Of a DNA stretch of 64,000 bases, positions 6,889 through 51,249 are shown in pieces. Under the pieces are notes generated by a model. That model was not told the origin of the DNA. It worked only from the letters and a program-made list of their open reading frames with translations, and searched no databases. A program made the position numbers and the translations under genes. The DNA comes from an uncultured Bacteroidota bacterium. GTDB lineage: Bacteria > Bacteroidota > Bacteroidia > 2-12-FULL-35-15. The stretch spans positions 71,614-135,613 of the forward strand of contig CAIYIS010000007.1 of assembly GCA_903926385.1 (NCBI GenBank), written 5' to 3'. The first letter of the stretch is position 1. Every line of letters starts with the position of its first letter.

Positions 6889-7692
6889 TTAAATCTTAAA
6901 AGTAATAGCCTCCGAAAAGCTAAAATAAAAAGGAGCAATGGGAACTACGGGGTGGGTGTCGTAAATGCTGTTGAAGTTAAACTCTATGCCCACATGTTTG
7001 GTAATGTTAACATCCCATTTAATAACATTGGCAATGCGGGGGTAGATAAAAAATCGGTCGGGACGAGTTTGCAAAAAGGTGGTGAAGAAAAAATCGCTGT
7101 TGTCGCTTACTTTAATTTCGAATTTGATATACGAGTTGGATTTGATATACTGAGTTTGCACCGAAGGGGCGTTATGCGGAATGAGAGTGGAGTCGTAAAC
7201 AGCGGTGTAGTTCCATTGTTCCTGCTCGTACATTACGCCTGTGGCAAGCACAATATTGAACCGAGGATGAACGTAATTATTCCATCGGATGTTAGAGCCC
7301 GCCAGAGAGCGATACAAAATGCCTCGCTTGTTGTCCCACTGATACTGGGCATAACACTCGGGGTGTACTTTGTTTTTATAGTTATGCCGATAGCGAAGAT
7401 GAATAAAACCGGTGTTCAGGATATCGTCAGGCCCGTTGTAAGTAAACCGGAAACCGGATGAAAGCAACAGCAATTCTTTCGATTTTTGAAGAGACATGTC
7501 GAGCGTGTTCGAAGCATCATAAATGGTTGTTTTTTGTTTATCCACCTCCAGCCCACTGCCAAATACTGAATTGAAAAGGGCTTTGGATTTATATCCTGTT
7601 GTATCTATCTTATCAATAGAGATGATTTGCGCCCGCAACAATGGGGAGGAAAAGATAAAGAAAGTAAAAAAAAGAAGTAAGCTGTGTTTCAT
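6889..7692 (-). CDS. putative outer-membrane protein (signal peptide, beta-rich, C-terminal aromatic-x-hydrophobic)
   Basis: The N-terminal signal peptide MKHSLLLFFTFFIFSSPLLRAQ, the alternating hydrophobic pattern and the C-terminal ...ITFKI are consistent with an OM beta-barrel. Assignment to a named family was not possible. Confidence 0.45.
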   Translation of the reverse strand: MKHSLLLFFTFFIFSSPLLRAQIISIDKIDTTGYKSKALFNSVFGSGLEVDKQKTTIYDASNTLDMSLQKSKELLLLSSGFRFTYNGPDDILNTGFIHLRYRHNYKNKVHPECYAQYQWDNKRGILYRSLAGSNIRWNNYVHPRFNIVLATGVMYEQEQWNYTAVYDSTLIPHNAPSVQTQYIKSNSYIKFEIKVSDNSDFFFTTFLQTRPDRFFIYPRIANVIKWDVNITKHVGIEFNFNSIYDTHPVVPIAPFYFSFSEAITFKI

Positions 7693-9188: not shown

Positions 9189-9287
9189 GGCATAACTGAG
9201 TGAGGCAAGACTACCTGAATTATTTTTCAACAATATTATTTTCAAAAGACACAAGTTCAACCTTTTATTATTAACAATAAAAAGAGG

Positions 9288-9320
9288 CCCTTTGTAACCC
9301 GCGTGTTCTCTCTATATTTG
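9288..9320 (+). promoter_or_regulatory. putative Bacteroidota sigma-A promoter (-33 TTG / -7 TATATTTG)
   Basis: TATATTTG (9313-9320) matches the TAnnTTTG -7 consensus about 30 nt upstream of the 9351 ATG. A TTG lies about 23 nt further upstream. Confidence 0.3.
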
Positions 9321-9350
9321 AGCATTAAATAATTTTATATAATTATAAAG

Positions 9351-12035
9351 ATGCTTACACGAATATCATTAATCAACTCAAAAGGCTATGGAAAAGCCGA
9401 ACTTAAATTAGATAATTGCGACTCGCTTCAGTTGGTGGGGCCTAATAATATTGGGAAAAGTACACTTATTTATGCTTTGAACTTTTTGTTTATTGTAGAC
9501 GGACAGAAAATGTCGTTTAGCGGACAACGAAAAGGAGATAAAGAAACCATTCACCATTATTTTCCTACTCATAACAAGAGTTTTCTGGTGTTCGAAATGA
9601 ACAAGCTCGGGTATTCGTGTATATTGGTTAAAGCCAATTCGGACTGGGATTTGGAGTATTACCGAATAGAAAGCGAATATAACGAAGAATACTTTTTTGA
9701 CAGTCAGGAAAAACATCGTATACGCAGTTTTGACGAAGTGGAAGCTTTGCTTGCCGCTAAAGGAATTGAATACAGAAAGTATGCAAACAAAACAGAAGTG
9801 TTTAATGATGTTTACAAAAGAGGGAAAAACAACAATGCTGTGGTTTGGCTTGAAGATGCAGTAAAAACGGATGGACTGAGTAATAACTTTTCGAAGATAT
9901 ACCGTTACCTTATCAACTCGAAACTTATTACCAATAAAACGCTGAAAGATTCGTTGATAATTGCCGATAACAGAGAAAATGAGGGGTTGAACTTTTCGCA
10001 ACGAAACAAAACGGATATACTTAGTTTGTTAAAAGCAAATCAGGAAATACGAAATATTAAAGCAATTCAGCACGACTTTTTGGAGTTCAGAGAAACAGTA
10101 CGTGTCTTTAATTCGAAATCGAAAATTGTAAGTGAGTTGATTTATTGTTTCAACAAAGCATACGTTTCGGCTATTCCTCAATTTGAAAATACAATTTTGG
10201 AAAAAGGACATAACATAACTTCTATCCATAATGAAATAAACGAAATACTTCAACCGAAGGAACTCGATTTTGCCACACGAATAGGTGAGAAAAAATCGGA
10301 TATAAAAAACAAAACAAATTACTTCCTTGATAAGCAAGCTGAGTTGAATGAAATCAACAAGTTTGAGACCATTGATTTTCTAAATGAACAACTGAGAAAT
10401 CTGGATAAATCTCGTAAAGAAATTGAGTCGAGGATAACTACTATTGAGTCGCAGAAACTTTCGAGCAAGCAACTAGAGGCAAGACTCGAAAAAATAAATC
10501 AGCAAATAGCGTTAACCGAAAAACAAATAGATAACTATAATAACCTGCTTATTCATAAAATTTCGGATGATGAGGATGTGAAAAAGTTGTTGAATACTGT
10601 TCTTTCGGAGCAGGTAGCTAGCTTGTCGAGCAAACAAATAAAAAAACCTATTAAGAAAATATCGAACAAATTACTTAGCATTTTTGATGGTGAGATTGAT
10701 ATTTCCAAAGGCTTGCTTTTAAAAGAATTTAAATCGGTAAAAGAATTTAAGGACGAACTAAAAGCACTGGAACATGAAAAAAACCAAACGCTGGAACTTC
10801 TGAAAGTGGTTACCGATAAAGAAAAAACGGATGCCAAACTAAAAGAAATTATTGGGGAGATAGAGGAGATAAAAGAGAAGGTGAAAAAGATAGTTAGTAA
10901 ACCTCAGCTCGAAAAACACCTTGCAATAGTTCAAGCAGATATCAAAAAGCTTACAGGCGAGCAAAATGATTTGGATGAAGCCTTGAAAGATTTGGTAAAA
11001 GAAATAGCGCAAAAACAAATAGCACTGGAGGCATTCCAGGATGAGAGAAGGAATTTTGAGGTAAGGTTGAAAGAACTTAAAGAACGTAAGATGGAGATAG
11101 AAACCATTACCGACATTGAGCCTACTGAATTTGAAATAACCGATAATCTCGACCACATTTATCAGAAAATAAAAATTCATCAAAATGATCGTTTAGACAT
11201 TAAGCTAAATAAAGGAAGGGTGTTTGACAGTTTGAAAAACAAACTGAATAACGATATAGCCGATGAAGAAGAGTTTATCAAATTTGTGCAGGAAGAGATA
11301 CTTTGTTTGAGTGATAAAGAAAGAAGTATTGACGGCCTTTTGCAAAGTATTTCAATGCAGTTTGCTACTCCTGCTCATGCCTTGATTAAGCGTTATGATG
11401 AATTTAAGCAGTTTGTTTATAATAAATTTAATACCAAACTTTCTAAAACTCGTATTTCTAACATTGAGTCGATGCGTGTGGAATTACTGGATAATGAACG
11501 TATCATTGGAGAGTTAAAGAAAATAAGCGCTATTCAGGAGTTTAACGGGCAAATGAGTTTTGAATTTGATCAATCAGAAAACTTAAAAATACTAAATACT
11601 TATTTGGATAACGGAAAGAAGATAAGTTTTGATGAGTTGTTTAACATTCAACTTGTGTTAACTATTCAAGGGAATGAAAAGCATGTGGACCTTGCCAATC
11701 AGGTGGAGTCGGATGGAACTGACAGAATGATACGTTTGGTTATGATCATGTCGATTATTAACCGACTTGCAATAACTGATGAGCAGAATAAGATAGTTTT
11801 GTTTATTGATGAGGTTGCCACGATAGATAAACAAAATCGTCCGGAGATTGTAAAGTTTTGTAACGAACATTTCTTTATCCCGATTTTTGCCGCACCAGAT
11901 GCAGTAGAAGGATTCAATAAATACTATTTTATTTATCCTTCTAAAAATAAGATTAACATCAATGAACGACAAAATGCAATTGTTGTTGAGAAAAATGGTG
12001 TAGTAGAAAAAATAGGAAAAAAAGTTAAATCTTAA
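9351..12035 (+). CDS. SMC/Rad50/SbcC-like ABC ATPase with long central coiled coil
   Basis: N-terminal Walker A GPNNIGKST. A region of roughly 400 aa rich in heptad-like E/K/L/I repeats follows. The C-terminus has a degenerate signature (ESDGTDRM), Walker B IVLFIDE, a D-loop and a later His. No nuclease partner (SbcD-like) follows. Confidence 0.7.
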   Translation: MLTRISLINSKGYGKAELKLDNCDSLQLVGPNNIGKSTLIYALNFLFIVDGQKMSFSGQRKGDKETIHHYFPTHNKSFLVFEMNKLGYSCILVKANSDWDLEYYRIESEYNEEYFFDSQEKHRIRSFDEVEALLAAKGIEYRKYANKTEVFNDVYKRGKNNNAVVWLEDAVKTDGLSNNFSKIYRYLINSKLITNKTLKDSLIIADNRENEGLNFSQRNKTDILSLLKANQEIRNIKAIQHDFLEFRETVRVFNSKSKIVSELIYCFNKAYVSAIPQFENTILEKGHNITSIHNEINEILQPKELDFATRIGEKKSDIKNKTNYFLDKQAELNEINKFETIDFLNEQLRNLDKSRKEIESRITTIESQKLSSKQLEARLEKINQQIALTEKQIDNYNNLLIHKISDDEDVKKLLNTVLSEQVASLSSKQIKKPIKKISNKLLSIFDGEIDISKGLLLKEFKSVKEFKDELKALEHEKNQTLELLKVVTDKEKTDAKLKEIIGEIEEIKEKVKKIVSKPQLEKHLAIVQADIKKLTGEQNDLDEALKDLVKEIAQKQIALEAFQDERRNFEVRLKELKERKMEIETITDIEPTEFEITDNLDHIYQKIKIHQNDRLDIKLNKGRVFDSLKNKLNNDIADEEEFIKFVQEEILCLSDKERSIDGLLQSISMQFATPAHALIKRYDEFKQFVYNKFNTKLSKTRISNIESMRVELLDNERIIGELKKISAIQEFNGQMSFEFDQSENLKILNTYLDNGKKISFDELFNIQLVLTIQGNEKHVDLANQVESDGTDRMIRLVMIMSIINRLAITDEQNKIVLFIDEVATIDKQNRPEIVKFCNEHFFIPIFAAPDAVEGFNKYYFIYPSKNKININERQNAIVVEKNGVVEKIGKKVKS

Positions 12036-12048
12036 TTAGTCTAATAAA

Positions 12049-13242
12049 ATGAAGGCAGAACCAAGAACCGTACTCCGATTTTTGTTAGAGTATTTTGATA
12101 TTGTAAAAGACCTGTTTGATGCACAAACAAGGGATAACATCATTACATACGAGGTAATGAATGAAATTACATCCAAACATAAAATGGATGTAAAGATTCA
12201 GTTGCTGGAGTATAAAATAATAAGTAATGTTGCGGAAAACTATCAGTTTCGTCCGGTATTCGCCAATTTGATTGAGTTTATTCTAAGCGAGTTTAAACCT
12301 ATGTTGCCCGAAACGATTGAAAAGTATCATGTTTCGATTGGTGAGCTATTCAGGAAAATACGTGAAAATATCAATGGAGATAGAGTTATCTTAAACCAGC
12401 GCATTAGTGAACTGAGTAATGAAATCAATAATTTCTATGAATCGGTAGAAAAGAATACGCTTGCGCTTTTGAATGAAACGCGCGAATTGAAAGCCAATGT
12501 AAAGAAAGTGGATTACCGTGAGAAAATTATTCGTGCATCCCGTTGGATTGATGAGTACATTATTCCGCTTAATAAAATTCTTGACTTAAACCATTCTACA
12601 TCGCTTACCACTAAACTGTATGAGGTGTCGGAATATACAAATCGTTATCGTTTAAATTTTGATGATGAAGGAACGCGAATTCAATTCGAGAAACTCTATT
12701 TTTCATTGATTCAAGTAAACGATAATCTATTGCGGCAGTCAAAAATTCTGACAAATGAATTATTGCCATTAATTGAACGAATCCGGACGGAGTCAATCAT
12801 TCTTTCCGGCTGGATTAATTTTCTTAAGGCACCTCACAAGAAAAAAGTTCCGAAAATACTTGAAGTAAAGAGAAACTACATTTATTCGAAAGATACCTTT
12901 TTTAATGCGGCAGAGTTTTTTGATGCCTTCAAAAATGATGCTGATGTATATATAGAAGATGAAGAGTATGCAGATGAAAAATGGATTTTTGACAAACAAC
13001 ATTACAAAGACAAATTGCAGGAAAATATGCCGGTGCTTGATTTCTTTAAATGGTGTAACAAAACGTTGAAAGAAGATTATAAAAAAGTAGAAATAGAAAA
13101 ATTCTTTGCCCTTACATCACTTGCATTTGAAGAGGATTTACAATTGGAATATCCGGCCAAAGCAGAATTTGACAAAATAAAAATAAACGAGTTAACATTA
13201 ACAGTACCAAAAATTACAATTAATAAACATGGAATATCCTAG
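12049..13242 (+). CDS. hypothetical protein, second gene of the ATPase operon
   Basis: 397 aa, starting 13 nt after the ATPase stop. Alpha-helical composition with no recognisable catalytic motifs. Confidence 0.65.
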   Translation: MKAEPRTVLRFLLEYFDIVKDLFDAQTRDNIITYEVMNEITSKHKMDVKIQLLEYKIISNVAENYQFRPVFANLIEFILSEFKPMLPETIEKYHVSIGELFRKIRENINGDRVILNQRISELSNEINNFYESVEKNTLALLNETRELKANVKKVDYREKIIRASRWIDEYIIPLNKILDLNHSTSLTTKLYEVSEYTNRYRLNFDDEGTRIQFEKLYFSLIQVNDNLLRQSKILTNELLPLIERIRTESIILSGWINFLKAPHKKKVPKILEVKRNYIYSKDTFFNAAEFFDAFKNDADVYIEDEEYADEKWIFDKQHYKDKLQENMPVLDFFKWCNKTLKEDYKKVEIEKFFALTSLAFEEDLQLEYPAKAEFDKIKINELTLTVPKITINKHGIS

Positions 13243-13750
13243 AAACCACCGCAAAATTGTAGACGAACTCATGAGCGGTAAATTTATTTTACCCATTGAA
13301 CAGCATTACGAAGTATTAAAAGAAAATGAAGAATTCTATATTGATTTTTTTAAAATTTCTTTTAATTATGATTTGAAGTTTACTCAACATTACGTGTATT
13401 TAGTATCTGATGAATCAGCAGAAATGCTTTCTAGAGATATGTGCATTTTCTTTGCTGTTTTGAGTTACGAACTTGACCGAGACGGAAAAAACTTCCTTGA
13501 ACGCATTCAGTACACCGAGTTTGAACTGGATGAATTAGAAAATTATTTTATCAATTCATCCTACATTGATTTAATTCAAAGCAACAAACAATTGAAAGAT
13601 GCAGATGCTCGCAAGAATTTTATCAATACTTTAAACAGACGAAATATACTCGAAAAGATTGGAGACAACAGAATACTTTTCACGTCAGCGCATAAATTCT
13701 TTATGGATTTCGCATCTGATATTGTGAAATTTGAAAACGTTGAGGAATAA
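13229..13750 (+). CDS. hypothetical protein, third gene of the ATPase operon
   Basis: 173 aa. Its start overlaps the upstream stop by 14 nt (ATGGAATATCCTAG), indicating translational coupling. Acidic helical protein. Confidence 0.6.
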   Translation: MEYPRNHRKIVDELMSGKFILPIEQHYEVLKENEEFYIDFFKISFNYDLKFTQHYVYLVSDESAEMLSRDMCIFFAVLSYELDRDGKNFLERIQYTEFELDELENYFINSSYIDLIQSNKQLKDADARKNFINTLNRRNILEKIGDNRILFTSAHKFFMDFASDIVKFENVEE

Positions 13751-13785
13751 CAAGGTTATTTAGTCAATCCGTGTTTTCTTTAAAA

Positions 13786-13820
13786 TAAAATCAGGTGTCG
13801 ATCACCTGATTTTGTTTTGT
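13786..13820 (+). terminator. rho-independent terminator closing the three-gene operon
   Basis: ATCAGGTG-tcga-(t)CACCTGAT stem followed by TTTGTTTTG. Confidence 0.6.
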
Positions 13821-13871
13821 ACCTTCGTCCCGAAATCAATTATTACAATAATTCATTCATACTAATATAAC

Positions 13872-34287: not shown

Positions 34288-37200
34288 ATGAACAAAGATT
34301 GTATTCAAGAAAAAATATACGAATTTGTATTTGAAACATTTTTATGCGTACATTTAGCATCGAATTTGAGTAAATCTAATCTAAAAACTTTTAAGAAATT
34401 GAAAAAACAATTACTACTACTACTTGTCTGTATAATTAATGGTTTTGCACTAAGTGCTCAGTCGTTTCAGTTGTTTACAGAAGATTTTGAATCCACCAAT
34501 GCTTTTACCCTTAACACACCTGGACCCGGTTCTTCATCTGGTAATAACAGATGGACAGTAACCAACAATTATACAGGAGTTCCTTTATACAACAATACCA
34601 TGAGTGAGGATAGTACTTATAGCGGTTCCATTGCATTTGCACCTCACAGTAAATATCTTCATATTTATGATTCATTTTCGGGTATTACTAATGCTAATTA
34701 TGATGCTACAACAGTGTCTGACAATTTTTCATGTCTTACCAACGGCTTGTGTACATTGGGAATGGATAGTGTTCATTTTATTTTTTATTACCTGTGCGAA
34801 GGCTCTGCAAATGCTCATGGAGAAGTTTATTATAGTATAAATGGTGGTCCTTGGATCCAAACAGGACAAGCTCAGTATAAGAATAAATACAAATGGCAAT
34901 ACGAAGACATTACTGACCCAGCATTCAGTAATCAAACCAACTTGCGTTTTGGTTTCAGATGGTTAAACGGGAGCGGTACTCCTCCTTCTAACGAATCTTT
35001 TTCTATAGATGATATAGATGTTGCAGCCAGTTACGGAAGCAATACAGGAAATCCGGTTACATGTACTGTTGACAGTGTCGTTCCGAATCCGGTGTGTCAA
35101 GGTAACTATATTTATATTTATTGGCACTTGTCGGATACTTTATGTGACGGAAGTTATACCATTCAACTTTCAAATTCAGGCGGTACTTTTCCGGGAGCAA
35201 ACGCTTGGATATTTAATGTGTATTATCCTCAAACTAGCGGTGTAATGGTTATTCAGTTACCAAATACTGTACTTCCCGGAAGTTGTTATAAAATACGAAT
35301 CAATCGAACCACTCCTCTCCCTGCCATCACAGGAATCGCCAGTGCATGTTATTCAATAATTGCTTGTCCTAATACCATTTCCACACTCCAACCTGTCGTC
35401 ACCATGGATACAAATGCCGTCTGTATAGGTAGTGCTATTGATATTCCATTCTGGTCGGAAGGTGTGTATCTTATTGGCAATTCATACACAGCTCAGCTGT
35501 CCGATTCAAACGGAGTTTTCCCGAGTTCTCCAACTATAATAAATGCTTCGTTTGATCACAATACCTATTCACCAGTTCTTCCCCCTTATCAGCCAGGGTC
35601 AGTTTCAGGTATAGTACCAACAGTGACACCTGGGTGCAATTATTATATCCGTGTTGTTTCCAATAACCCTACTGCAATCGGGACCCCCTATGGACCTTTC
35701 TGCATTCGGCAGTGTGATATAGAAACCAACAACAACACGGATCTTCATTTTTGTGTAACCGATTGTTCTGTGCTTCCTCTTGGGCAGAACACGACAATAC
35801 CGGTTGGTACAAATACGTTTGATTCCACCATGACAGGAGCGGTGTATGGGTTTGGGAATATTTTCAAATCTCAATTAATGAGCAGTATGACATTTGCTCA
35901 GATTGGTTCGGACGGGATACTAGGCCATGTAGCAGCCACACACGACACCATAATGCCTATTCATGCTCCTTGTAAAGATAGTTTAGCTATTAATCCTCCT
36001 TATGGAATTCCGCTTGGAATGAATTATATGAGAGCAATTGCAACGAACACCACTCAGCCGGATAATGCATTGGGTAGTTTGGTAAGAGTTACCATTGGAG
36101 CTACGCATTCTGTGGGGCCTTCTGTAGACTGTTTGAACTACACCACATTTATGCCGCAAGATACTTTTTGTTTAGGCGATCAGATATATCCTGAGTTTTC
36201 GCCTTATAATTATTTTGATAATTCCACTTATCAATGGATTATAAGCGGATTCAATAATGGCAATCCTTTTTCAAATCTTCAGGGCGCTAATTCAAACAAT
36301 ACTGGTTATGCATTCAATTTTCAACCGGGAACTTATACTTTTTCTGTTCTGGAAACCAATAACGGATGTATAGGACAATGGGGACCTGTTAAAACAATTG
36401 TGGTACTTGGGCCTCCAAGTGTTGCTATTACCGGACCAAATGTAATTTGTTTGGGCGACACCGTTCATTATTCGATACCCGCACAAGGTGTGGTTACACT
36501 GGGTGTTTGGAATAGCACTAATTCAAATGGACATTTAATTAATTCAACCAATACAGAAACTAATGCAATCGGTCAATCTACCGGTACATTTTTACTAACT
36601 GTGCAAGCGGTTAATACATGTGGTTCGGCTTCGAATTCACGAAGCATTACTGTAAAACCATATCCGAATGCTAATGCTGGAAATGATACTACTGTTTGTG
36701 TCAATCAGCCGATAACCCTGAGTACACCTACAGGAACAGGTTATATGTACAATTGGGTAACGGGAGGTACTACTGTAAATTCAACACATAGTTTTACGGT
36801 TAATCCGGTATCTACTTCCACTTATGTTGTTACCGTTTCAGTTTCGGGAGGATGTAAAACAAGAGATACGGTGGTGGTAAATGTGCAAACTCCTACCGGA
36901 GTTGCATTTCCTGAAAACGTTTGTCCATTAGGTAATAATCCGATTACATTGGCTGCCGACAGTTCCGGAAGTAGTTATTACTGGTTGCCGGGAGGACAAA
37001 CAACTCCAAGTATTTCGGTAAACGATACGGGTGTTTATTCGGTAGCGATAACAATGCCTGGAAGAGCTTGTGCAAGAGTTGTTACATTTAATGTGGCTCC
37101 CGAACCATGCCCTCAGGATTTGGTGTTAGCTATGCCTAATGTATTTTCGCCAGAAGGAAATGGTGTGAATGATTTTTTCACTCCAATTACTACTGGTGCT

Positions 37201-37398
37201 TATGCTGACTTTAAAGTAAAAATATACGACCGTTGGGGATTGCTGGTGTTCGAATCTGCCGACCCTTTCTTTAAATGGGATGGTACACACAAAGGAAAAA
37301 AATGCCCGGATGGTGTTTATTATTACATTGTAAATTATTTGCAAACTGGAAAAGATAGTCAGAGTCAAAGCGGATTCATAACCTTAATAAGAAAATAG
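34288..37398 (+). CDS. large secreted adhesin-like protein with T9SS type B (gliding-motility-associated, CHU_C-type) C-terminal domain
   Basis: The C-terminal ..FSPEGNGVNDFF...YDRWGLLVFES...KWDGT...GVYYYIV motif set is characteristic of the type B sorting domain. The upstream region has Cys-containing Ig/SprB-like repeats. The true start is probably internal (the signal peptide is near aa 40-58). Confidence 0.75.
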   Translation: MNKDCIQEKIYEFVFETFLCVHLASNLSKSNLKTFKKLKKQLLLLLVCIINGFALSAQSFQLFTEDFESTNAFTLNTPGPGSSSGNNRWTVTNNYTGVPLYNNTMSEDSTYSGSIAFAPHSKYLHIYDSFSGITNANYDATTVSDNFSCLTNGLCTLGMDSVHFIFYYLCEGSANAHGEVYYSINGGPWIQTGQAQYKNKYKWQYEDITDPAFSNQTNLRFGFRWLNGSGTPPSNESFSIDDIDVAASYGSNTGNPVTCTVDSVVPNPVCQGNYIYIYWHLSDTLCDGSYTIQLSNSGGTFPGANAWIFNVYYPQTSGVMVIQLPNTVLPGSCYKIRINRTTPLPAITGIASACYSIIACPNTISTLQPVVTMDTNAVCIGSAIDIPFWSEGVYLIGNSYTAQLSDSNGVFPSSPTIINASFDHNTYSPVLPPYQPGSVSGIVPTVTPGCNYYIRVVSNNPTAIGTPYGPFCIRQCDIETNNNTDLHFCVTDCSVLPLGQNTTIPVGTNTFDSTMTGAVYGFGNIFKSQLMSSMTFAQIGSDGILGHVAATHDTIMPIHAPCKDSLAINPPYGIPLGMNYMRAIATNTTQPDNALGSLVRVTIGATHSVGPSVDCLNYTTFMPQDTFCLGDQIYPEFSPYNYFDNSTYQWIISGFNNGNPFSNLQGANSNNTGYAFNFQPGTYTFSVLETNNGCIGQWGPVKTIVVLGPPSVAITGPNVICLGDTVHYSIPAQGVVTLGVWNSTNSNGHLINSTNTETNAIGQSTGTFLLTVQAVNTCGSASNSRSITVKPYPNANAGNDTTVCVNQPITLSTPTGTGYMYNWVTGGTTVNSTHSFTVNPVSTSTYVVTVSVSGGCKTRDTVVVNVQTPTGVAFPENVCPLGNNPITLAADSSGSSYYWLPGGQTTPSISVNDTGVYSVAITMPGRACARVVTFNVAPEPCPQDLVLAMPNVFSPEGNGVNDFFTPITTGAYADFKVKIYDRWGLLVFESADPFFKWDGTHKGKKCPDGVYYYIVNYLQTGKDSQSQSGFITLIRK

Positions 37399-37405
37399 TC
37401 ACTTG

Positions 37406-37430
37406 TTATTTGTTTTTCCCCCTCTCGAGT
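37406..37430 (+). terminator. GC-rich hairpin immediately after the 37398 stop (terminator-like; same CCCTCTC/GAGAGGG family)
   Basis: CCCCCTCTC-gagtga-GAGAGGGGG perfect 9-bp stem; the T-tract is weak. Confidence 0.3.
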
Positions 37431-37473
37431 GAGAGAGGGGGAAACTATTTTGATAGGGTTAAATAAAACAAAG

Positions 37474-40437
37474 ATGAGGTTGCTTCTACATATATTTTCA
37501 GCTGGTGCTAAGCAGGTTTATTTTCGACTTGTTTTGTTAGTTGCTTTTTTATGTGTTGCTAATCCCTTCGTTTCTTTTGCTCAGCGGCCCGACCCGATAT
37601 TAAAACCCGGACAATACCTTCCTCGTCTTACGGGATTATATTCCAGCAAACAAAGTCTCCCTTCTCCAAATAATACGGATGATACAGAGAATTATTTTCC
37701 TGAAAAATTTCCTTTGGATAAAAATCATTGCAAAGAAGATATTAGCAAACGTACGCCTACATCGAGAACATACAAGTCGGATGATGGGCAAATAGTGGTG
37801 GAAAATTCGCTTGCAAACATAAATTATTATGATAAGAATAAAGAGTTGCAGCCACTCACTCCCAATTTATATCCTGCATTAAACGGATGGATGGGCAAGT
37901 GTCAAGAGTTTCCTACTTATCTTCATCCTGATGGAAGTACCGAACTGACTTTATACGAGCATACATTTTCTTTTAATAAAAATTGCCGAATAAATAATCA
38001 GCCAATTAATATGACTGATTACACGGTAGGAGTAGAGGGTATGTATGCTCATGAGGTTTATCCTTCAGTTGATAAAAAAATCGTGTTTTTTGAAAATATG
38101 ATAGAAACCGATTACATCATTCAACAGCCCGTTGCTAGTAACGGACAGGACATTGTTTTTTCGGAAGAAATTAATTTGCCTGCCGGATATACTATTGTAA
38201 AAAATCCAAAACCTGTGCAGTTTAGAAAAGAAGGAGTGCCGATGGTGAACGATGATGAGTTGGATGAATACATAGTGGTGGATGCAGAAAAACGAGTGCA
38301 ATCGCAATTAAAGACTCCTGTTTATTATGATAAAAAATATAAATCGATAGCAGGTAAATATGAAGTAGTAACGGAGAATAACAAGACCATTCTGAAATAT
38401 GTTGTGCCTGCATCGTGGCTAAATGATGCATCAAGAGTATATCCGGTAACTATCGACCCTGTGGTATTTGGCCCGTATTCATGGTATCCTCCTCAGTTTG
38501 GTCCTTACAGTTATCCTACAGGTTGGTTACCGAGTTGTCAGGCTCCTAACTGGTCATCCGATAGTATGCTTATTACTATTCCTGCCAATGTTACTGTAAC
38601 ACATTTGATAACTTGGGATAGTTATTATGCGGATATGGTAAATGGAATTTTGATGGTATGGGGAGCTATGTACTTGCATTCGCCTTGTGGCACAACACCT
38701 GTGTTTGTTGCCGGTGGAGTAGGGGCCGACTCCTCCGGATATGCTTACCTGGATAGTTTCAATTTGGCAACCTGGGTTGGTTGTTGTTTTCCTCCATCGT
38801 GTAGCCCTCAATCATTTTATTTATCTCACCATTTTCAGCGCATTGCTATGTTGGGGCCTGGTTGCAATTTAACTATGGTTGGTTATAGTCCGGCAAGTCC
38901 ATGGAAATTTCATTGTTTCTTTATTGGGCGAACAGTAGAAACCTCTCAAAGTAATGGATGGTTTCTGTTTCCTTCTCCGGTGTGTTCGGACACCTGTAAT
39001 GTCAAGTTGAGAGTTATTAGTAATTATGGCGTACCTCCTTATACGCTCACACATCCGTGGGCTGCCGGAAGCTTGACGTACGGCACTGCAACAGGTGGAT
39101 GCAATAGTCACGGAACAGACACAATATCGCTTACCATTCCCGGATGTCCTACGTATTGTGGTGTTAATTCTACATTGAGTGTTCCTCCGCCCCATATCAC
39201 AGATGTTTGTGGAGATACAGTGGCGGGGCTTTCGCCTAAAAATATTACCATTCATCCTGCACCCGATGCACAAGCCAGCAATGTTACTGTTTGTGCAGGT
39301 ATGCCCATAAGTATTGCTGTTACATCGTGTGTGCCCACAGCCACATTTATATGGACAGGTAGCGATGCCAGCAGCGGTACAGGAAATATTTCGAATACTA
39401 ATACTGCTGTGCCAGGAGTTATTACATACACCGCTACACCAACAGCCAATGGATGTGCAGGCGCTCCTGCTATAGTTACCGCCACCATAGCCAATCAGCC
39501 AACGGCATCTCTTGTGGCTTCGGGCAATTTTATATGCGGAGGAATTCCGATTACCATTACCGGTTCGGGTGGGCCGCCTTATCAGTGGAGTGGAGGAAGC
39601 ACCGCCACTACAGCTTCAATCACTGTTACTCCAATGCTTACTACTGCTTATTATTTAACGGTAGGTTCGGGCAGTTGTACCGATTCGGCTAGTGTTATTA
39701 TTCAGGTCGATTCAATGCCTTTGCCTACTGTGGCCGGAAATCAGGTTATTTGCGAAGGGCAGAGTACTACTTTGGTTGCTACTGGTGCATCCACTTATTT
39801 ATGGAGTGGAGGTGTAAACAGTACTAATGCAACTGTTACTGTTTCGCCAGTATTAACCACTACTTATTATGTTACTGGTACTACTTCTTGCGGAAGTTCT
39901 ATAGATACTGCTGTGGTTACGGTTAATCCTATACCCAATGTTTACACCGGAAATACAGATACTACCATCACTGCAGGAATTACTTTGCAGTTGAGCAGTT
40001 TTGGTGGTAACTCTTATATATGGAGCGGAGATGGTTTGTCGTGTTCAGCTTGTCCCGACCCCATTGCACAGCCTCTAACCACTACTACGTACACATTAAC
40101 AGGAACCGATTTGAACGGATGTTCTTCTACCGATTACTTTACGGTTACCGTATTGCCGGGAGAAGATATTTTATATATACCGAATACTATTACCCCTGAC
40201 GAGAATGATAAAAACGATGTTTTTTATGCCTATGGCATCAACATAAAACATTTGCAAATGCAGGTGTTCGACCGTTGGGGAGAACTTATTTTTGAAAGTA
40301 ATGATAAATCAATTGGCTGGAATGGTATGCAAAACGGGGATTATGTGGGTATGGGGGTGTACGTTTATGTTATTCGTTGCGACTTTAACGATGGCACCAG
40401 TGTGAAACGAATTGGAAATATTAATGTGATTTATTAG
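37474..40437 (+). CDS. large secreted adhesin-like protein with T9SS type B C-terminal domain
   Basis: Signal peptide MRLLLHIFSAGAKQVYFRLVLLVAFLCVANPFVSFAQ. Repeated ~75-aa Cys-containing Ig-like units (..CxG..xxLxAxGAxxYxWSxG..). C-terminal ITPDENDKNDVF...FDRWGELIFES...GWNG...GVYVYVI type B CTD. Confidence 0.75.
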   Translation: MRLLLHIFSAGAKQVYFRLVLLVAFLCVANPFVSFAQRPDPILKPGQYLPRLTGLYSSKQSLPSPNNTDDTENYFPEKFPLDKNHCKEDISKRTPTSRTYKSDDGQIVVENSLANINYYDKNKELQPLTPNLYPALNGWMGKCQEFPTYLHPDGSTELTLYEHTFSFNKNCRINNQPINMTDYTVGVEGMYAHEVYPSVDKKIVFFENMIETDYIIQQPVASNGQDIVFSEEINLPAGYTIVKNPKPVQFRKEGVPMVNDDELDEYIVVDAEKRVQSQLKTPVYYDKKYKSIAGKYEVVTENNKTILKYVVPASWLNDASRVYPVTIDPVVFGPYSWYPPQFGPYSYPTGWLPSCQAPNWSSDSMLITIPANVTVTHLITWDSYYADMVNGILMVWGAMYLHSPCGTTPVFVAGGVGADSSGYAYLDSFNLATWVGCCFPPSCSPQSFYLSHHFQRIAMLGPGCNLTMVGYSPASPWKFHCFFIGRTVETSQSNGWFLFPSPVCSDTCNVKLRVISNYGVPPYTLTHPWAAGSLTYGTATGGCNSHGTDTISLTIPGCPTYCGVNSTLSVPPPHITDVCGDTVAGLSPKNITIHPAPDAQASNVTVCAGMPISIAVTSCVPTATFIWTGSDASSGTGNISNTNTAVPGVITYTATPTANGCAGAPAIVTATIANQPTASLVASGNFICGGIPITITGSGGPPYQWSGGSTATTASITVTPMLTTAYYLTVGSGSCTDSASVIIQVDSMPLPTVAGNQVICEGQSTTLVATGASTYLWSGGVNSTNATVTVSPVLTTTYYVTGTTSCGSSIDTAVVTVNPIPNVYTGNTDTTITAGITLQLSSFGGNSYIWSGDGLSCSACPDPIAQPLTTTTYTLTGTDLNGCSSTDYFTVTVLPGEDILYIPNTITPDENDKNDVFYAYGINIKHLQMQVFDRWGELIFESNDKSIGWNGMQNGDYVGMGVYVYVIRCDFNDGTSVKRIGNINVIY

Positions 40438-47652: not shown

Positions 47653-50600
47653 ATGAATTTTTCCCATCTTCATGTGCATACCCAATTTTCGCTGTTGGAT
47701 GGAGCAGCCGATATTTCTTCGCTTTACAAAAAAGCGGTAAACGATAATATGCGAGCTGTTGCTATTACCGATCATGGAAACATGTTTGGTGTATTCAAAT
47801 TTGTAGCAGAAGCCGGCAAACACAATACGCCCGAAAACCCTAATAAAATTAAACCCATTGTAGGTTGCGAATTTTATGTGGTAGATAACATGCATAAACG
47901 AGCCTTTACAAAGGATGATAAAGATGTGCGCTACCATCAGCTATTATTAGCCAAAGATGCCGAAGGATATAAAAACCTGGTTAAGCTTTGTTCCTATGGT
48001 TATATGGAAGGGTTGTACGGAAAATACCCGCGTATCGACAAAGAACTTATTCTGAAATATCATAAGGGCCTGATTGCAACAACCTGTTGTTTGGGAGCAT
48101 CTGTGCCTCGTGTTATATTGAGAAAAGGAGAGGATGAAGGTGAAAAGGAATTCAAATGGTGGCTGGATATTTTTGGTGAAGATTATTATGTAGAGTTGCA
48201 ACGACACAATATTCCAGAACAAAATACCGTGAATGAAGTATTGCTAAAACTTGCTAAAAAATATAATGTAAAAATAATTGCTTCTAACGATTCGCATTAT
48301 GTTGACCAAGAAGATTCCAATGCTCATGATATTTTGCTTTGCATAAATACTGGTGAGAAACAAAGTACACCAACCATGAAAGATTTTGGTGATGACGATT
48401 CTGTTTCTTCAAAAGGAAAACGTTTTGCTTTTTATAACAACGAATTTTATTTTAAGACAACAGCTGAAATGACTCAGCTTTTCAGCGACCTGCCTCAGGC
48501 CATTGATAACACCAATGAGATAGTAGATAAAATAACTCCGCTCAAACTAAAGCAGGATATCATGTTGCCCAATTATCAAATACCTGATGGTTTTGCCACT
48601 CAGGATGATTTTTTGTACGACATGACTTACAAAGGCGCGAAAGAACGTTACAAGGAAATTACACCTGAAGTAGATGAACGATTGAGATTCGAATTGTTTA
48701 CTATTAAAACAATGGGTTTTGCAGGTTACTTCCTTATTGTAGCCGATTTTATTAATCACGGAAAAGACATTGGTGTGTTTGTTGGGCCTGGTCGTGGTTC
48801 TGCTGCGGGTTCTGCGGTGGCTTATTGTATTGGAATAACCAACATCGACCCGATAAAATATAATTTACTATTCGAACGTTTCCTTAATCCCGACCGTAAA
48901 ACAATGCCCGATATTGATACGGATTTTGATGATGAAGGTCGTCAAAAGGTGATTGATTATGTGGTGGAGAAATACGGAAAGAATCAAGTTGCACAAATTG
49001 TAACCTATGGTACAATGGCTGCCAAAAGCAGTATTAAAGATGTTGCCCGTGTTATGGATTTACCATTGCAGGAATCGAATATGCTAGCCAAACTCGTACC
49101 CGACAAACCCGGCATTGAACTGGACAGAGTGATGAATGCTCCGCTTACAGGAGATGACAGTCTGGAAATGAAAGAAGGTTTGATGGCTGATGATATTGAA
49201 AATGTAAAGAAACTACGTGCCATAGCTGATGGAAATGATTTACAGGCAACCGTTCTGAGAGAAGCATTGGTGCTCGAAGGTTCTGTTCGCGGAACTGGTA
49301 TTCATGCTTCTGCTATTATCATTGCTCCAAAAGATTTAACGGATATTGTTCCTATATCGGCCTCCAAAGAAACCGAGTTGTTCATTACTCAGTACGATGG
49401 TAAAGTGATTGAAGATGCCGGTGTAATTAAGATGGATTTTTTGGGACTCAAAACACTAACTATCCTGAGAGATGCCTTGAGACTGATAAAGGAAAACCAT
49501 GGAGTGGAAATGGAGATAGATGATGTTCCGTTGGACGATGCTGCTACTTTCGAACTTTATCAAAAAGGAGATACCAATGGTACATTTCAGTTCGAAAGTG
49601 CCGGAATGCAGAAGCACTTGATTAATCTGAAACCGGATAAGTTTGCAGATTTAATTGCCATGAACGCATTGTATCGTCCCGGCCCTATTGAATACATCCC
49701 TAACTTTATTGCGCGTAAAAGCGGTAAGGAAGCCATTACATACGATTTGCCCGAAATGGAAGAATACCTTTCGGATACTTATGGTATCACGGTATATCAG
49801 GAGCAAGTCATGCTTCTATCGCAAAAGTTGGCAGGTTTTACAAAAGGTGATGCCGATATTTTGCGTAAAGCAATGGGAAAAAAAGACCGTGGCACACTGG
49901 ATAAAATGAAAAGCAAGTTTGTAGAAGGTGCCACTGCTAAAGGACATCCTATTGAAAAGCTTGAAAAGATATGGACTGATTGGGAAAAGTTTGCTCAATA
50001 TGCGTTTAATAAATCTCACTCTACTTGTTATGCATTTGTTGCATTTCAAACAGCTTATTTAAAAGCTCACTATCCTGGCGAATACATGTCGTCCGTGCTA
50101 ACTCACCATTTAAGTAATATTGATAAAATTACTTTCTTTATGGATGAGTGTAAACGTATGGGAGTGCCTGTACTCGGCCCGGATGTAAACGAAAGTCAAT
50201 ATCAGTTTTCGGTAAATAAAAACGGACAAATCCGTTTTGGAATGGGAGGAATAAAAGGGGTTGGAGAAAATGCCGTAATTGCAATAGTTAACGAGCGTAA
50301 AGAAAATGGCCCTTACAAAAATGTCTTCGATTTTGTTCGAAGAATAAATCTGAGAGCGGTAAACAAAAAGACATTAGAAAGTCTTGCTTATTCAGGTGGT
50401 TTGGATAGTTTCGGCATTCATCGTGCTACTTATTTCTTTACCGAGGGGAATGATAATTCCAATTTTCTGGAACGCGTTATTCGCTATGGTGGTTCACATC
50501 AGGAAGGGGTTAACTCGGCTCAGGTGTCGCTTTTTGGAGAAGAATCTTCAGCAGATATTCCTGAACCTAAAATACCCGTATGTGAAGAGTGGCATAAATT

Positions 50601-51249
50601 AATACAACTGAAAAACGAAAAAGATGTGGTTGGTTTCTTTATTTCAGGGCATCCTCTGGATACGTATAAACTGGAAATGGAAAACTTCTGCTTTCATTCG
50701 GTGAGTGATACAAAAAAACTTGAAGAAAATAAAAACAAAGAACTTGTGTTTGGAGGTATCGTTACTGCCGTTCACAACGGTGTTACCAAAACCGGAAATC
50801 CCTGGGGGAAAATAACACTCGAAGATTATCGCGAATCGGCCGAACTGGCTTTCTTTGGTGAGGATTATGTAAAGTTCAAGCAATATATGGTTAATGGATT
50901 GTTTCTATACATCAAAGGTAAAGTACAAGAACGATTCAGACAGGCAGATAATTTAGAATTTAAAGCAAGTAATATTCAACTGTTATCTGAACTGCGAGAT
51001 AAACTTGCCAAAACCATTACCATTAATGTTGGTTTGTCCGAATTGAATGATGATTTTATTTTAAAAGTAGAAGAGATACTTAGCGAAAATGCAAACGTAC
51101 AACCCCGCAACTGTTTGTTGCGTTTCCGTGTGATAGATGCGGAAGAAAATATTTCTGTTTTTCTGCCGTCAAAAAAAATAAAAGTGAATCCTAATAATGA
51201 GCTGTTAGAAATGTTAGAAGTCAATCATCTTACTTATTCTTTGAATTAA
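47653..51249 (+). CDS. dnaE: DNA polymerase III alpha subunit
   Basis: N-terminal PHP domain (HLHVHTQFSLLDGA), polymerase core motifs (PDIDTDF, GLLKMDFLGLKTL), C-terminal OB region. Confidence 0.92.
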   Translation: MNFSHLHVHTQFSLLDGAADISSLYKKAVNDNMRAVAITDHGNMFGVFKFVAEAGKHNTPENPNKIKPIVGCEFYVVDNMHKRAFTKDDKDVRYHQLLLAKDAEGYKNLVKLCSYGYMEGLYGKYPRIDKELILKYHKGLIATTCCLGASVPRVILRKGEDEGEKEFKWWLDIFGEDYYVELQRHNIPEQNTVNEVLLKLAKKYNVKIIASNDSHYVDQEDSNAHDILLCINTGEKQSTPTMKDFGDDDSVSSKGKRFAFYNNEFYFKTTAEMTQLFSDLPQAIDNTNEIVDKITPLKLKQDIMLPNYQIPDGFATQDDFLYDMTYKGAKERYKEITPEVDERLRFELFTIKTMGFAGYFLIVADFINHGKDIGVFVGPGRGSAAGSAVAYCIGITNIDPIKYNLLFERFLNPDRKTMPDIDTDFDDEGRQKVIDYVVEKYGKNQVAQIVTYGTMAAKSSIKDVARVMDLPLQESNMLAKLVPDKPGIELDRVMNAPLTGDDSLEMKEGLMADDIENVKKLRAIADGNDLQATVLREALVLEGSVRGTGIHASAIIIAPKDLTDIVPISASKETELFITQYDGKVIEDAGVIKMDFLGLKTLTILRDALRLIKENHGVEMEIDDVPLDDAATFELYQKGDTNGTFQFESAGMQKHLINLKPDKFADLIAMNALYRPGPIEYIPNFIARKSGKEAITYDLPEMEEYLSDTYGITVYQEQVMLLSQKLAGFTKGDADILRKAMGKKDRGTLDKMKSKFVEGATAKGHPIEKLEKIWTDWEKFAQYAFNKSHSTCYAFVAFQTAYLKAHYPGEYMSSVLTHHLSNIDKITFFMDECKRMGVPVLGPDVNESQYQFSVNKNGQIRFGMGGIKGVGENAVIAIVNERKENGPYKNVFDFVRRINLRAVNKKTLESLAYSGGLDSFGIHRATYFFTEGNDNSNFLERVIRYGGSHQEGVNSAQVSLFGEESSADIPEPKIPVCEEWHKLIQLKNEKDVVGFFISGHPLDTYKLEMENFCFHSVSDTKKLEENKNKELVFGGIVTAVHNGVTKTGNPWGKITLEDYRESAELAFFGEDYVKFKQYMVNGLFLYIKGKVQERFRQADNLEFKASNIQLLSELRDKLAKTITINVGLSELNDDFILKVEEILSENANVQPRNCLLRFRVIDAEENISVFLPSKKIKVNPNNELLEMLEVNHLTYSLN

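What the first reader, a model, noticed from the sequence alone, without database searches (positions are those of the whole stretch)
9285..13820. Self-contained three-gene operon: coiled-coil SMC/Rad50-like ABC ATPase plus two coupled motif-less proteins, a candidate undescribed condensin-like or defence module
An 894-aa protein has an N-terminal Walker A (GPNNIGKST) and a coiled coil of roughly 400 aa. Its C-terminus carries a degenerate signature, Walker B and D-loop (ESDGTDRM...IVLFIDEVATID). It is followed at +13 nt by a 397-aa helical protein, and at -14 nt (overlapping ATGGAATATCCTAG) by a 173-aa acidic protein. The operon has its own TAnnTTTG promoter and a strong terminator and is wedged between housekeeping genes (mtaB-like, lgt). 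The sizes (SMC-like plus about 400 plus about 170 aa) echo the kleisin plus KITE partners of MukBEF/MksBEF/Wadjet, but the gene order (ATPase first) and the short ATPase differ from canonical JetABC/MksFEB. No SbcD-like nuclease, Toprim or HNH partner is present, so it is not SbcCD, Wadjet with JetD, Gabija, PARIS, Septu or a classic Lamassu arrangement.
Basis: partly seen in the sequence, partly recalled or inferred. Interest (0 to 1): 0.8.

Follow-up and report, generated by a model that had tools for sequence, protein, structure and literature searches.

The report
Nuclease-less compact Wadjet-type SMC operon
This three-gene operon in an uncultured Bacteroidota chromosome encodes a small, highly divergent relative of the MukBEF/Wadjet DNA-looping machines whose closest relatives carry a DNA-cutting nuclease gene that it lacks, so it looks like a plasmid-defence system turned into a chromosome organiser.

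Summary
Three co-directional, tightly coupled genes (894, 397 and 173 aa) lie between a MiaB/MtaB-type methylthiotransferase gene and lgt, and end in a strong terminator.

All three proteins can now be assigned:
- The 173-aa protein passes Pfam's MksE (KITE) cutoff (E 6.5e-18).
- The ATPase model matches MukB best (E 7e-16), then JetC.

The operon therefore belongs to the Mks/Wadjet group of SMC complexes. It differs from described members in several ways. The gene order is B-F-E rather than F-E-B(-G). The subunits are small. PADLOC and NCBIfam do not recognise it, and no B-first operon is listed in the supplementary tables of the largest published census, as held.

Its nearest relatives, from 44% kleisin identity downward, carry a 264–270-aa JetD_C/Toprim gene between the ATPase and the kleisin. 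The window's clade lacks that gene. This clade is monophyletic, syntenic across about 50 species and chromosome-only, and it is conserved at least as strongly as the flanking core genes.

Best reading: a Wadjet-derived, nuclease-less condensin-like loop extruder. The function is inferred, not shown. Verdict: new variant of a known kind.

The parts
9291..9320 (+). Putative Bacteroidetes-type promoter (TTTG, 18-nt spacer, then TATATTTG), 31 nt upstream of the ATPase start codon
   Evidence: The pattern matches here and the sequence was read directly. The pattern is not enriched over chance in the window (6 found, 5.4 expected), so this part is tentative.
9351..12035 (+). MksB/JetC/MukB-like SMC ATPase, 894 aa. 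Head halves are at residues 1-215 and 705-860. Antiparallel arm helices are at 217-394 and 470-697. A small hinge-like region lies at about 395-470.
   Evidence: ORF. AlphaFold model with pLDDT 70. Foldseek best hits are MukB at 7e-16 to 1e-14, then JetC types I and II at 1e-10 to 1e-8. Homologues P0061 and P0118 pass Pfam DUF3584. The window protein itself gets only sub-cutoff AAA_21/AAA_29 hits.
9438..9464 (+). Walker A / P-loop GPNNIGKST (residues 30-38)
   Evidence: Direct reading. Invariant across 34 family members.
10533..10760 (+). Hinge-like central region (residues 395-470) with invariant F445-D446-G447; presumed dimerisation module
   Evidence: Break between the two arm helices in the model, at low confidence (pLDDT 43-58). 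The FDG motif is invariant in both tiers of the family. The role is inferred.
11706..11828 (+). C-terminal ATPase motifs: signature-like ESDGT (786-790), Walker B IVLFIDE (815-821) and D-loop ATID (823-826)
   Evidence: Direct reading. S787, G789, T790, D820 and E821 are invariant across both tiers.
12049..13242 (+). MukF/JetA/MksF-type kleisin, 397 aa. N-terminal winged helix (5-67), helical bundle (87-260), flexible linker (about 265-315) and C-terminal winged helix (316-392).
13229..13750 (+). MksE/JetB/MukE-type KITE subunit, 173 aa, acidic; its start overlaps the kleisin stop by 14 nt
   Evidence: Pfam PF21980 MksE, E 6.5e-18, 66 bits against a cutoff of 27, covering model positions 2-161 of 163. 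pI 4.81. Overlap.
13781..13822 (+). Intrinsic terminator: 17-bp hairpin followed by a U-rich tail
   Evidence: RNA fold dG -20.7 kcal/mol, z -5.05, 0 of 200 shuffles fold as well.

Best explanation
The operon encodes a compact SMC-kleisin-KITE complex of the MukBEF-like (Mks/Wadjet) group.

Proposed mechanism, by analogy with MukBEF and JetABC (PMC7617805, PMC10586767):
- Two ATPase subunits dimerise at the small central hinge.
- Each kleisin bridges the neck of one head and the cap of the other, through its helical bundle and its C-terminal winged helix.
- The kleisin N-terminal winged-helix and bundle region pairs two such motors.
- A KITE dimer sits on the kleisin linker.
- ATP binding and hydrolysis at the Walker A, Walker B and signature sites drive DNA entrapment and loop extrusion.

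The window's version has no Toprim nuclease, and its closest relatives do. I therefore propose it is a Wadjet-type plasmid-sensing machine that lost its effector and was kept as a chromosome-folding or segregation factor. That is the route proposed in the literature for MukBEF and MksBEF, taken here independently inside Bacteroidota.

What is shown and what is inferred:
- Shown: the identity of the three subunits, intact ATPase motifs, absence of the nuclease, presence of the nuclease in sister operons, and core-gene-like conservation and synteny.
- Inferred: complex stoichiometry, loop extrusion, and action on the chromosome rather than on foreign DNA.

My confidence in the identity is about 0.9 and in the chromosomal role about 0.55.
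For: Identity of the three proteins:
- Pfam MksE for the 173-aa protein.
- ATPase model best matches MukB, then JetC. Homologues pass DUF3584 at both head halves.
- Walker A, signature and Walker B residues are invariant.

Operon:
- A-B-C order holds in 71 of 71 loci, and the kleisin-KITE overlap is kept in most.

Nuclease in relatives:
- A 264-270-aa gene lies between ATPase and kleisin in 13 of the 21 distant-tier loci fetched, and in L075, L076 and L077.
- It has invariant ENLDS, HTYGG, PDYD and EQQ motifs.
- 8 of 11 members hit JetD_C and 11 of 11 hit DUF7281, all below cutoff.
- UniRef names it 'Wadjet protein JetD C-terminal', and some homologues carry precomputed PF09983.

Loss of the nuclease:
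- In a neighbour-joining kleisin tree the window's nuclease-less clade is monophyletic, and its nearest neighbours carry the nuclease gene. A second nuclease-less subclade lies elsewhere in the tree.

Core-like behaviour:
- mtaB lies upstream in 25 of 29 loci where that flank is visible. lgt lies downstream on the same strand in 21 of 42.
- Flanks are housekeeping genes in more distant lineages too.
- The window is core chromosome: DnaE, ClpX, H+-PPase, PorZ.
- The kleisin has no copies in PLSDB plasmids or the phage collection.
- dN is 0.04-0.05, against 0.11-0.12 for mtaB and lgt in the same genome pairs.
- One genome carries both a triad and a four-gene nuclease operon, which suggests distinct roles.

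Literature:
- Nuclease loss is the proposed origin of MksBEF and MukBEF (PMC10586767; 10.1101/2025.03.10.642339).
- Several Wadjet-group members lack MksG (PMC7617805).
Against: - No functional data exist for any member of this family.
- The window's ATPase does not itself reach any SMC, Muk or Jet sequence-profile cutoff.
- The ATPase model is only moderately confident (pLDDT 70, pTM 0.37), and its hinge region is poorly predicted.
- The tree is a crude neighbour-joining, midpoint-rooted tree without support values, so the direction of change (loss or gain of the nuclease gene) is inferred.
- I could not test whether host genomes also have Smc-ScpAB, so the operon's standing as a chromosomal condensin is open.
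- A nuclease-less SMC complex could still act against foreign DNA, as eukaryotic Smc5/6 does (PMC10586767).
Confidence: 0.6

Rival explanations
1. It is still a defence system. The nuclease-less SMC complex recognises small circular or foreign DNA by loop extrusion. It then either silences or compacts that DNA, or recruits an effector encoded elsewhere in the genome.
For: - The closest relatives are Wadjet-like operons with a JetD_C/Toprim gene.
- The KITE N-terminus (YPxxHxxIV...) is invariant in operons with and without the nuclease gene, so any nuclease-docking surface could still be present.
- SMC complexes can restrict DNA without cutting it, as Smc5/6 does (PMC10586767).
- One genome keeps both versions, which could also mean two defence specificities.
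Against: - There is no defence-island context. Neighbours are housekeeping genes in three different lineages.
- Synteny is stable across about 50 species.
- Amino-acid divergence is lower than in the flanking core genes. From general knowledge, that is unusual for defence genes, which tend to be patchy and fast-evolving.
- The kleisin has no plasmid or phage copies.
- PADLOC finds no system.
Confidence: 0.3
2. The ATPase is a standalone Rad50/SbcC/RecN-type repair protein, and the two downstream genes are unrelated neighbours.
For: - Rad50 (7zr1) appears among the fold hits at E 2e-10.
- JGI labels some homologues 'SbcCD ATPase subunit'.
Against: - The two downstream genes are a MukF/JetA-fold kleisin and an MksE KITE.
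- They are translationally coupled to each other, follow the ATPase gene by 13 nt, and co-occur with it in 71 of 71 loci.
- There is no SbcD/Mre11 partner gene and no CxxC zinc hook.
- MukB hits are about five orders of magnitude better than Rad50.
Confidence: 0.02
3. It is a Lamassu / ABC-3C-type SMC-like defence system, made of LmuB plus accessory proteins.
For: - It is a three-gene operon with a short SMC-like ATPase.
- There is a faint LmuB match (E 0.08) in one distant homologue, and a weak Lamassu fold hit, 9hqx, at E 0.026.
Against: - There is no LmuA-type effector domain in any of the three proteins.
- The partners are kleisin and KITE. From the review PMC10586767, Lamassu instead pairs LmuB with the effector LmuA and the small protein LmuC.
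- PADLOC Lamassu models do not hit the window proteins.
Confidence: 0.03

Closest known systems
Wadjet / JetABCD (MksBEFG, EptABCD), types I-III
   Same: - It has an SMC ATPase with a JetC/MukB-type fold, a JetA-type kleisin with N- and C-terminal winged helices and a helical bundle, and a JetB/MksE KITE.
- Its sister operons carry a JetD_C-type Toprim gene.
- My estimate of its arm length (about 178 residues, roughly 26 nm) is close to type I JetC (about 29.5 nm; 10.1101/2025.03.10.642339).
   Different: - The window operon has no JetD/MksG.
- The gene order is C-A-B (ATPase first) instead of A-B-C-D. In the sister operons the nuclease gene sits between the ATPase and the kleisin rather than at an end.
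- The kleisin is 397 aa. Listed examples are about 440-530 aa, calculated from Data S1 coordinates.
- The sister nuclease is 264-270 aa. From memory, JetD is about 400 aa and has a CAP domain.
- No PADLOC Jet model fires on the window proteins.
MksBEF of Pseudomonas aeruginosa (nuclease-less Mks condensin)
   Same: - It is a nuclease-less three-subunit Mks complex encoded on the chromosome.
- The literature proposes that MksBEF arose from a Wadjet ancestor by JetD loss and acts on the chromosome (PMC10586767).
   Different: - The gene order differs (mksF-E-B there, B-F-E here).
- The nearest relatives here are Bacteroidota operons that carry the nuclease gene, so the loss looks independent.
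- Orthology with Pseudomonas MksBEF was not tested.
- A chromosomal function has been shown for Pseudomonas and has not been tested here.
MukBEF of Escherichia coli and relatives
   Same: - MukB and MukF are the best structural matches for the ATPase and the kleisin.
- MukBEF also lacks the nuclease, and it is the main chromosome organiser in its hosts (PMC7617805).
   Different: - MukB is about 1,480 aa with arms of about 58 nm. This ATPase is 894 aa with arms of about 26 nm.
- Sequence identity in the structural alignments is about 10-14%.
- The gene order and the host phylum differ.
Smc-ScpAB
   Same: It has the same general architecture of SMC, kleisin and KITE.
   Different: - SMC_N scores 10.3 bits against a cutoff of 40, and no SMC hinge family appears among the Pfam hits.
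- The kleisin matches MukF/JetA, not ScpA.
- The KITE matches MksE, not ScpB.

Membership tests
Mks/Wadjet group (MukBEF-like SMC complexes) | KITE subunit of the MukE/MksE/JetB type | tested here: met
   Pfam PF21980 MksE, E 6.5e-18, 66 bits against a cutoff of 27, nearly full length. The same hit occurs in relatives.
Mks/Wadjet group (MukBEF-like SMC complexes) | Kleisin of the MukF/MksF/JetA type (N-terminal winged helix plus helical bundle, linker, C-terminal winged helix) | tested here: met
Mks/Wadjet group (MukBEF-like SMC complexes) | SMC ATPase of the MukB/MksB/JetC type, judged by fold | tested here: met
   The model topology is head, arm, hinge-like region, arm, head. Best Foldseek hits are MukB at 7e-16, then JetC types I and II.
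Mks/Wadjet group (MukBEF-like SMC complexes) | SMC ATPase recognised by the family's sequence profile (Pfam DUF3584 or PADLOC JetC) | tested here: inconclusive
   The window protein has no DUF3584 or JetC hit. 4 of 34 family members reach DUF3584, best 1.2e-15. One distant-tier ATPase touches JetC1-3 weakly.
Mks/Wadjet group (MukBEF-like SMC complexes) | Canonical operon order F-E-B, with G at an end if present | tested here: not met
   The order here is B-F-E, and B-G'-F-E in sister operons. The census tables of PMC7617805, as held, list FEB, FEBG and GFEB and contain no BFE, BGFE, GBFE or BFEG.
Wadjet defence system (JetABCD) | JetD/MksG Toprim nuclease encoded in the operon | tested here: not met
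   There is no such gene in or beside the window operon, nor in 50 orthologous loci or in L072-L074. It is present in sister operons.
Wadjet defence system (JetABCD) | Restriction of small circular plasmids | not testable with these tools
   This needs transformation or plasmid-stability assays.
MksBEF condensin (Pseudomonas type) | Nuclease-less Mks complex that contributes to chromosome organisation or segregation | not testable with these tools
   Nuclease-less status is shown. The chromosomal role rests only on indirect evidence: core context, synteny and low dN.
Smc-ScpAB | SMC_N head and SMC hinge profiles, with ScpA and ScpB partners | tested here: not met
   SMC_N scores 10.3 bits against a cutoff of 40, and no hinge family appears among the hits. 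The partners match MukF/JetA and MksE.
SbcCD / Mre11-Rad50 | Mre11/SbcD phosphoesterase partner and a CxxC zinc hook at the coiled-coil apex | tested here: not met
   There is no such partner gene and no CxxC anywhere in the ATPase.
Lamassu | LmuB ATPase together with an LmuA effector | tested here: not met
   No PADLOC Lmu hit for the window proteins and no effector domain.

The most novel reading that the evidence does not exclude
In this uncultured Bacteroidota lineage the triad is the principal chromosome-folding SMC complex. It would be a third, independent domestication of a Wadjet-type defence system, after MukBEF and MksBEF. It may replace Smc-ScpAB, as MukBEF did in gamma-proteobacteria. 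The ancestral nuclease-bearing form would still be alive in sister taxa, and even in one of the same genomes.

That would supply a natural before-and-after pair for studying how a plasmid-killing SMC machine becomes a condensin. It would also bear on the report that no homologues of known condensins could be found in some Bacteroidetes (PMC10197239).
Probability: 0.15. Interest if true: 0.85.

Novelty: new variant of a known kind. Interest (0 to 1): 0.6.

Why it matters
1. It extends the Mks/Wadjet group with a compact subfamily that current detection misses. PADLOC, NCBIfam and most Pfam models do not see it. The published census filters of MksF at least 400 aa, MksB above 890 aa and consecutive B/F/E hits would probably exclude much of it. 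Annotation pipelines therefore label all its proteins 'hypothetical'.

2. The family contains both nuclease-bearing four-gene operons and nuclease-less three-gene operons, with at least two apparent losses. That offers a recent, traceable example of the route from defence system to chromosome organiser that is hypothesised for MukBEF and MksBEF.

3. The nuclease-bearing form occurs in cultured strains (Pedobacter lithocola CCM 8691, Zhouia amylolytica), so it is open to experiment.

4. The subunits are small: an 894-aa SMC and a 397-aa kleisin, plus a Toprim nuclease of about 269 aa in the sister operons. That could make it a convenient minimal system for structural and single-molecule work on loop extrusion.

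Tried and rejected
- PADLOC and NCBIfam scans of all three proteins and of the sister-operon proteins gave no meaningful hits.
- Sequence searches of the PDB found only coiled-coil noise. This covered the ATPase, the KITE, the kleisin family profile and the nuclease family profile.
- The sigma-70 promoter and terminator scan was uninformative for this organism and missed the real terminator.
- The Bacteroidetes promoter consensus is not enriched over chance.
- The 1198-aa ORF at 47653-51249, suspected to be Smc, is DnaE.
- A scan of about 1.1 Mb of fetched loci for canonical Smc found none, only two LSGG-containing ORFs (992 and 1031 aa) that I did not characterise. Co-occurrence with Smc-ScpAB therefore could not be assessed.
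- The kleisin has no plasmid or phage copies.
- The founding MksBEF paper (PMC3179180) is not held.
- The KITE N-terminus does not distinguish operons with and without the nuclease gene.
- I considered and rejected the SbcC/Rad50, RecN, Lamassu and Smc-ScpAB assignments; see the membership tests.


Full report
**Observation**

Genes 1 and 2 are 13 nt apart. Genes 2 and 3 overlap by 14 nt.

The ATPase motifs are present as described:
- Walker A GPNNIGKST at residues 30-38
- signature-like ESDGT at 786-790
- Walker B and D-loop IVLFIDEVATID at 815-826.

The operon ends in a hairpin at 13781-13819 with dG -20.7 kcal/mol and z = -5.05. A TTTG-N18-TATATTTG element sits 31 nt upstream of the first ATG. 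That pattern occurs as often as chance predicts in this window, 6 found against 5.4 expected, so I treat it as tentative.

The flanking genes are a UPF0004 + Radical_SAM methylthiotransferase, and LGT followed by an M1 peptidase. The rest of the window is core chromosome: DnaE, ClpX, H+-pyrophosphatase, PorZ and type IX secretion cargo proteins. It is not a defence island.

**Identity of the three proteins**

*The 173-aa protein.* It passes Pfam's gathering score for MksE, the KITE subunit of Mks condensins (E 6.5e-18, 66 bits against a cutoff of 27, nearly full length).

*The 397-aa protein.* It has no hit in Pfam, PADLOC, NCBIfam or the PDB by sequence, either alone or as a family profile.
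- An exhaustive search of 1.84 billion representative proteins found only 106 related clusters. The full-length members are all about 390-420 aa.
- A 49-sequence alignment gave a confident AlphaFold model (pLDDT 88.3). It shows an N-terminal winged helix, a long helical bundle, a disordered linker and a C-terminal winged helix.
- The 13 best Foldseek matches in the PDB are all MukF or JetA chains, and the alignments cover essentially the whole protein.

*The ATPase.* The model is of moderate quality (pLDDT 70). It has SMC topology: two head halves, antiparallel arm helices of about 178 and 228 residues, and a small central region of about 75 residues.
- Its best fold matches are MukB (E 7e-16 to 1e-14), then JetC of Wadjet types I and II. 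Rad50 and Smc5/6 are interspersed.
- Some homologues pass Pfam DUF3584, which PADLOC's model descriptions link to JetC and call MukB-like, at both head halves. Only 4 of 34 do, and the window protein does not.
- There is no CxxC zinc hook.

Together these results place the operon in the MukBEF-like (Mks/Wadjet) group as defined in PMC7617805.

**Relatives and context**

A scan of one genome per species with the kleisin returned 71 loci, all Bacteroidota. All keep the order ATPase-kleisin-KITE.

*Close tier: 50 loci at 69-94% kleisin identity.*
- They are nuclease-less triads like the window's.
- mtaB lies upstream in 25 of 29 loci where that flank is visible.
- lgt lies downstream on the same strand in 21 of 42.

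*More distant triads, about 55% ATPase identity.* These sit among other housekeeping genes: EF-G and a fatty-acid desaturase in one lineage, yajC, coaE and rpe in another.

*Distant tier: 21 loci at about 30% identity.* This tier includes Pedobacter, Cyclobacteriaceae, Flavobacteriales, Chitinophagales and Bacteroidales. Most are four-gene operons, with a 264-270-aa gene X inserted between the ATPase and the kleisin. All the genes are translationally coupled.

*Gene X.*
- It has invariant ENLDS, HTYGG, PDYD and EQQ motifs, which I read as the acidic catalytic residues of a Toprim domain.
- 8 of 11 copies hit JetD_C and 11 of 11 hit DUF7281, all below cutoff.
- UniRef names the Pedobacter and Zhouia proteins 'Wadjet protein JetD C-terminal...'. 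Some homologues carry precomputed PF09983.

*Where the nuclease gene occurs in the family.* The closest outgroup of the window's kleisin (44% identity) sits in such a four-gene operon. So do kleisins at 35% and 25% identity. In a neighbour-joining kleisin tree the window's nuclease-less clade is monophyletic, and its nearest neighbours carry X. A second nuclease-less subclade lies inside the distant tier. The simplest reading is that the four-gene form is ancestral and X was lost at least twice. The tree is crude and carries no support values.

One genome (MEPB01) carries both a triad and a four-gene operon.

**Selection and mobility**
- Against the two closest orthologous loci, dN is 0.036-0.054 for the three genes. 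In the same genome pairs it is 0.110-0.122 for mtaB and lgt.
- Synonymous sites are saturated. Where dN/dS could be computed it is 0.02-0.09.
- The kleisin has no tblastn match in 72,556 plasmid records or 50,697 phage records.

From general knowledge, this is how a vertically inherited core gene set behaves, not a typical mobile defence island.

**Mechanism**

By analogy with the solved MukBEF and JetABC structures (PMC7617805, PMC10586767), I propose the following:
- the ATPase dimerises at its hinge;
- a KITE dimer binds the kleisin linker;
- ATP turnover drives DNA entrapment and loop extrusion.

From the model I estimate arms of about 26 nm. That is close to type I JetC (29.5 nm) and far shorter than MukB (58 nm); the comparison values come from 10.1101/2025.03.10.642339.

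The window's version lacks the nuclease and behaves like a core gene set. Its most likely role is therefore chromosome folding or segregation. The literature proposes the same domestication route for MksBEF and MukBEF (PMC10586767; 10.1101/2025.03.10.642339). This step is inferred. A nuclease-independent defence role, or a role that depends on an effector encoded elsewhere, remains a serious rival at about 0.3.

**Comparison with what is known, and novelty**

The system belongs to a known kind, the Mks/Wadjet group, but it is a distinct variant.
- *Gene order.* The ATPase comes first. The operon tables of the largest published census, as held, list only FEB, FEBG and GFEB orders. The Bacteroidota entries I saw there are canonical F-E-B(-G) operons, with MksB of about 1,050-1,130 aa calculated from the listed coordinates.
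- *Census filters.* That census required MksF of at least 400 aa, MksB above 890 aa, consecutive B/F/E hits and MksG only at a flank. Those filters would probably exclude much of this family. This is my inference, and the stored supplementary files may be truncated.
- *Annotation.* PADLOC and NCBIfam do not recognise it. Sources label the proteins 'hypothetical'.
- *Literature.* A search for 'Wadjet IV', 'type IV Wadjet', 'Wadjet-like' and 'MksBEF-like' returned three papers, none with a title or abstract about such a system; I did not read them.
- *Pfam.* Some homologues carry precomputed Pfam accessions newer than my copy: PF28007 on the ATPase and PF28010 on the kleisin. Pfam curators may therefore already have built families for these proteins. 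I could not see their names.

**Open question**

A Hi-C study reported that no homologues of known condensins could be found in two Bacteroidetes (PMC10197239). I could not test whether the hosts of this triad have Smc-ScpAB. From memory, many Bacteroidota do encode Smc-ScpAB. I therefore give only about 0.15 to the reading that the triad is the principal condensin of its hosts.

**Verdict**

The operon is a real, conserved, previously uncharacterised subfamily of Mks/Wadjet SMC complexes. It has lost its nuclease and behaves like a core chromosomal function. It is a new variant of a known kind, with interest of about 0.6.

Noticed in passing
L051 7174-7980; L075 2762-3556; also L052-L055, L063-L068 and L071: Sister operons carry a compact (264-270 aa) JetD_C/Toprim-like gene between the ATPase and the kleisin. 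This makes a four-gene, ATPase-first Wadjet-like system, found in cultured Pedobacter lithocola and Zhouia amylolytica. No PADLOC model matched the proteins tested.
   Followed up: partly
L003 and L064 (both from assembly MEPB01): One genome carries both the nuclease-less triad and a four-gene nuclease-bearing operon. In L064 the operon is followed by a 407-aa ORF and a 1031-aa ORF with an LSGGQ motif. From their sizes these may be SbcD and SbcC; this was not tested.
   Followed up: partly
L067 4452-12808: Here a four-gene nuclease-bearing operon is directly followed by mtaB and lgt, the same two genes that flank the window's triad. This could be a coincidence, or a shared ancestral or preferred insertion site.
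   Followed up: no
L009 3495-7910: Two same-strand genes (318 and 1149 aa) are inserted between the ATPase and kleisin genes, which both remain intact. Both end in a PNPANDK-containing C-terminal region that I judged by eye to resemble a type IX secretion tail.
   Followed up: partly
L056, L058, L059, L060, L062, L070: A second subclade without the nuclease gene lies inside the otherwise nuclease-bearing distant tier. Its ATPase is 909-936 aa and abuts the kleisin gene directly, which suggests an independent loss. In L058-L060 a 374-aa ORF lies just downstream; it was not examined.
   Followed up: partly
window 56138-63982 (- strand), 34288-40437 (+ strand): There are very large type IX secretion cargo genes. 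One is a 2614-aa ORF with 21 PKD-like repeats and a CHU_C signal. Two more are about 1000 aa each with CHU_C. G+C rises to 0.45-0.49 over 56-64 kb, against about 0.37 elsewhere.
   Followed up: partly
window 6889-7692 (- strand): A 267-aa ORF with a signal-peptide-like N-terminus has no Pfam hit at E 1e-5 or better. It has no tblastn match in the close-tier loci examined.
   Followed up: no
Homologue tables: Precomputed Pfam accessions PF28007 (ATPase homologue) and PF28010 (kleisin homologues) are newer than the local Pfam copy. Their close numbering hints that a block of new families may cover this operon. Their names could not be retrieved.
   Followed up: no
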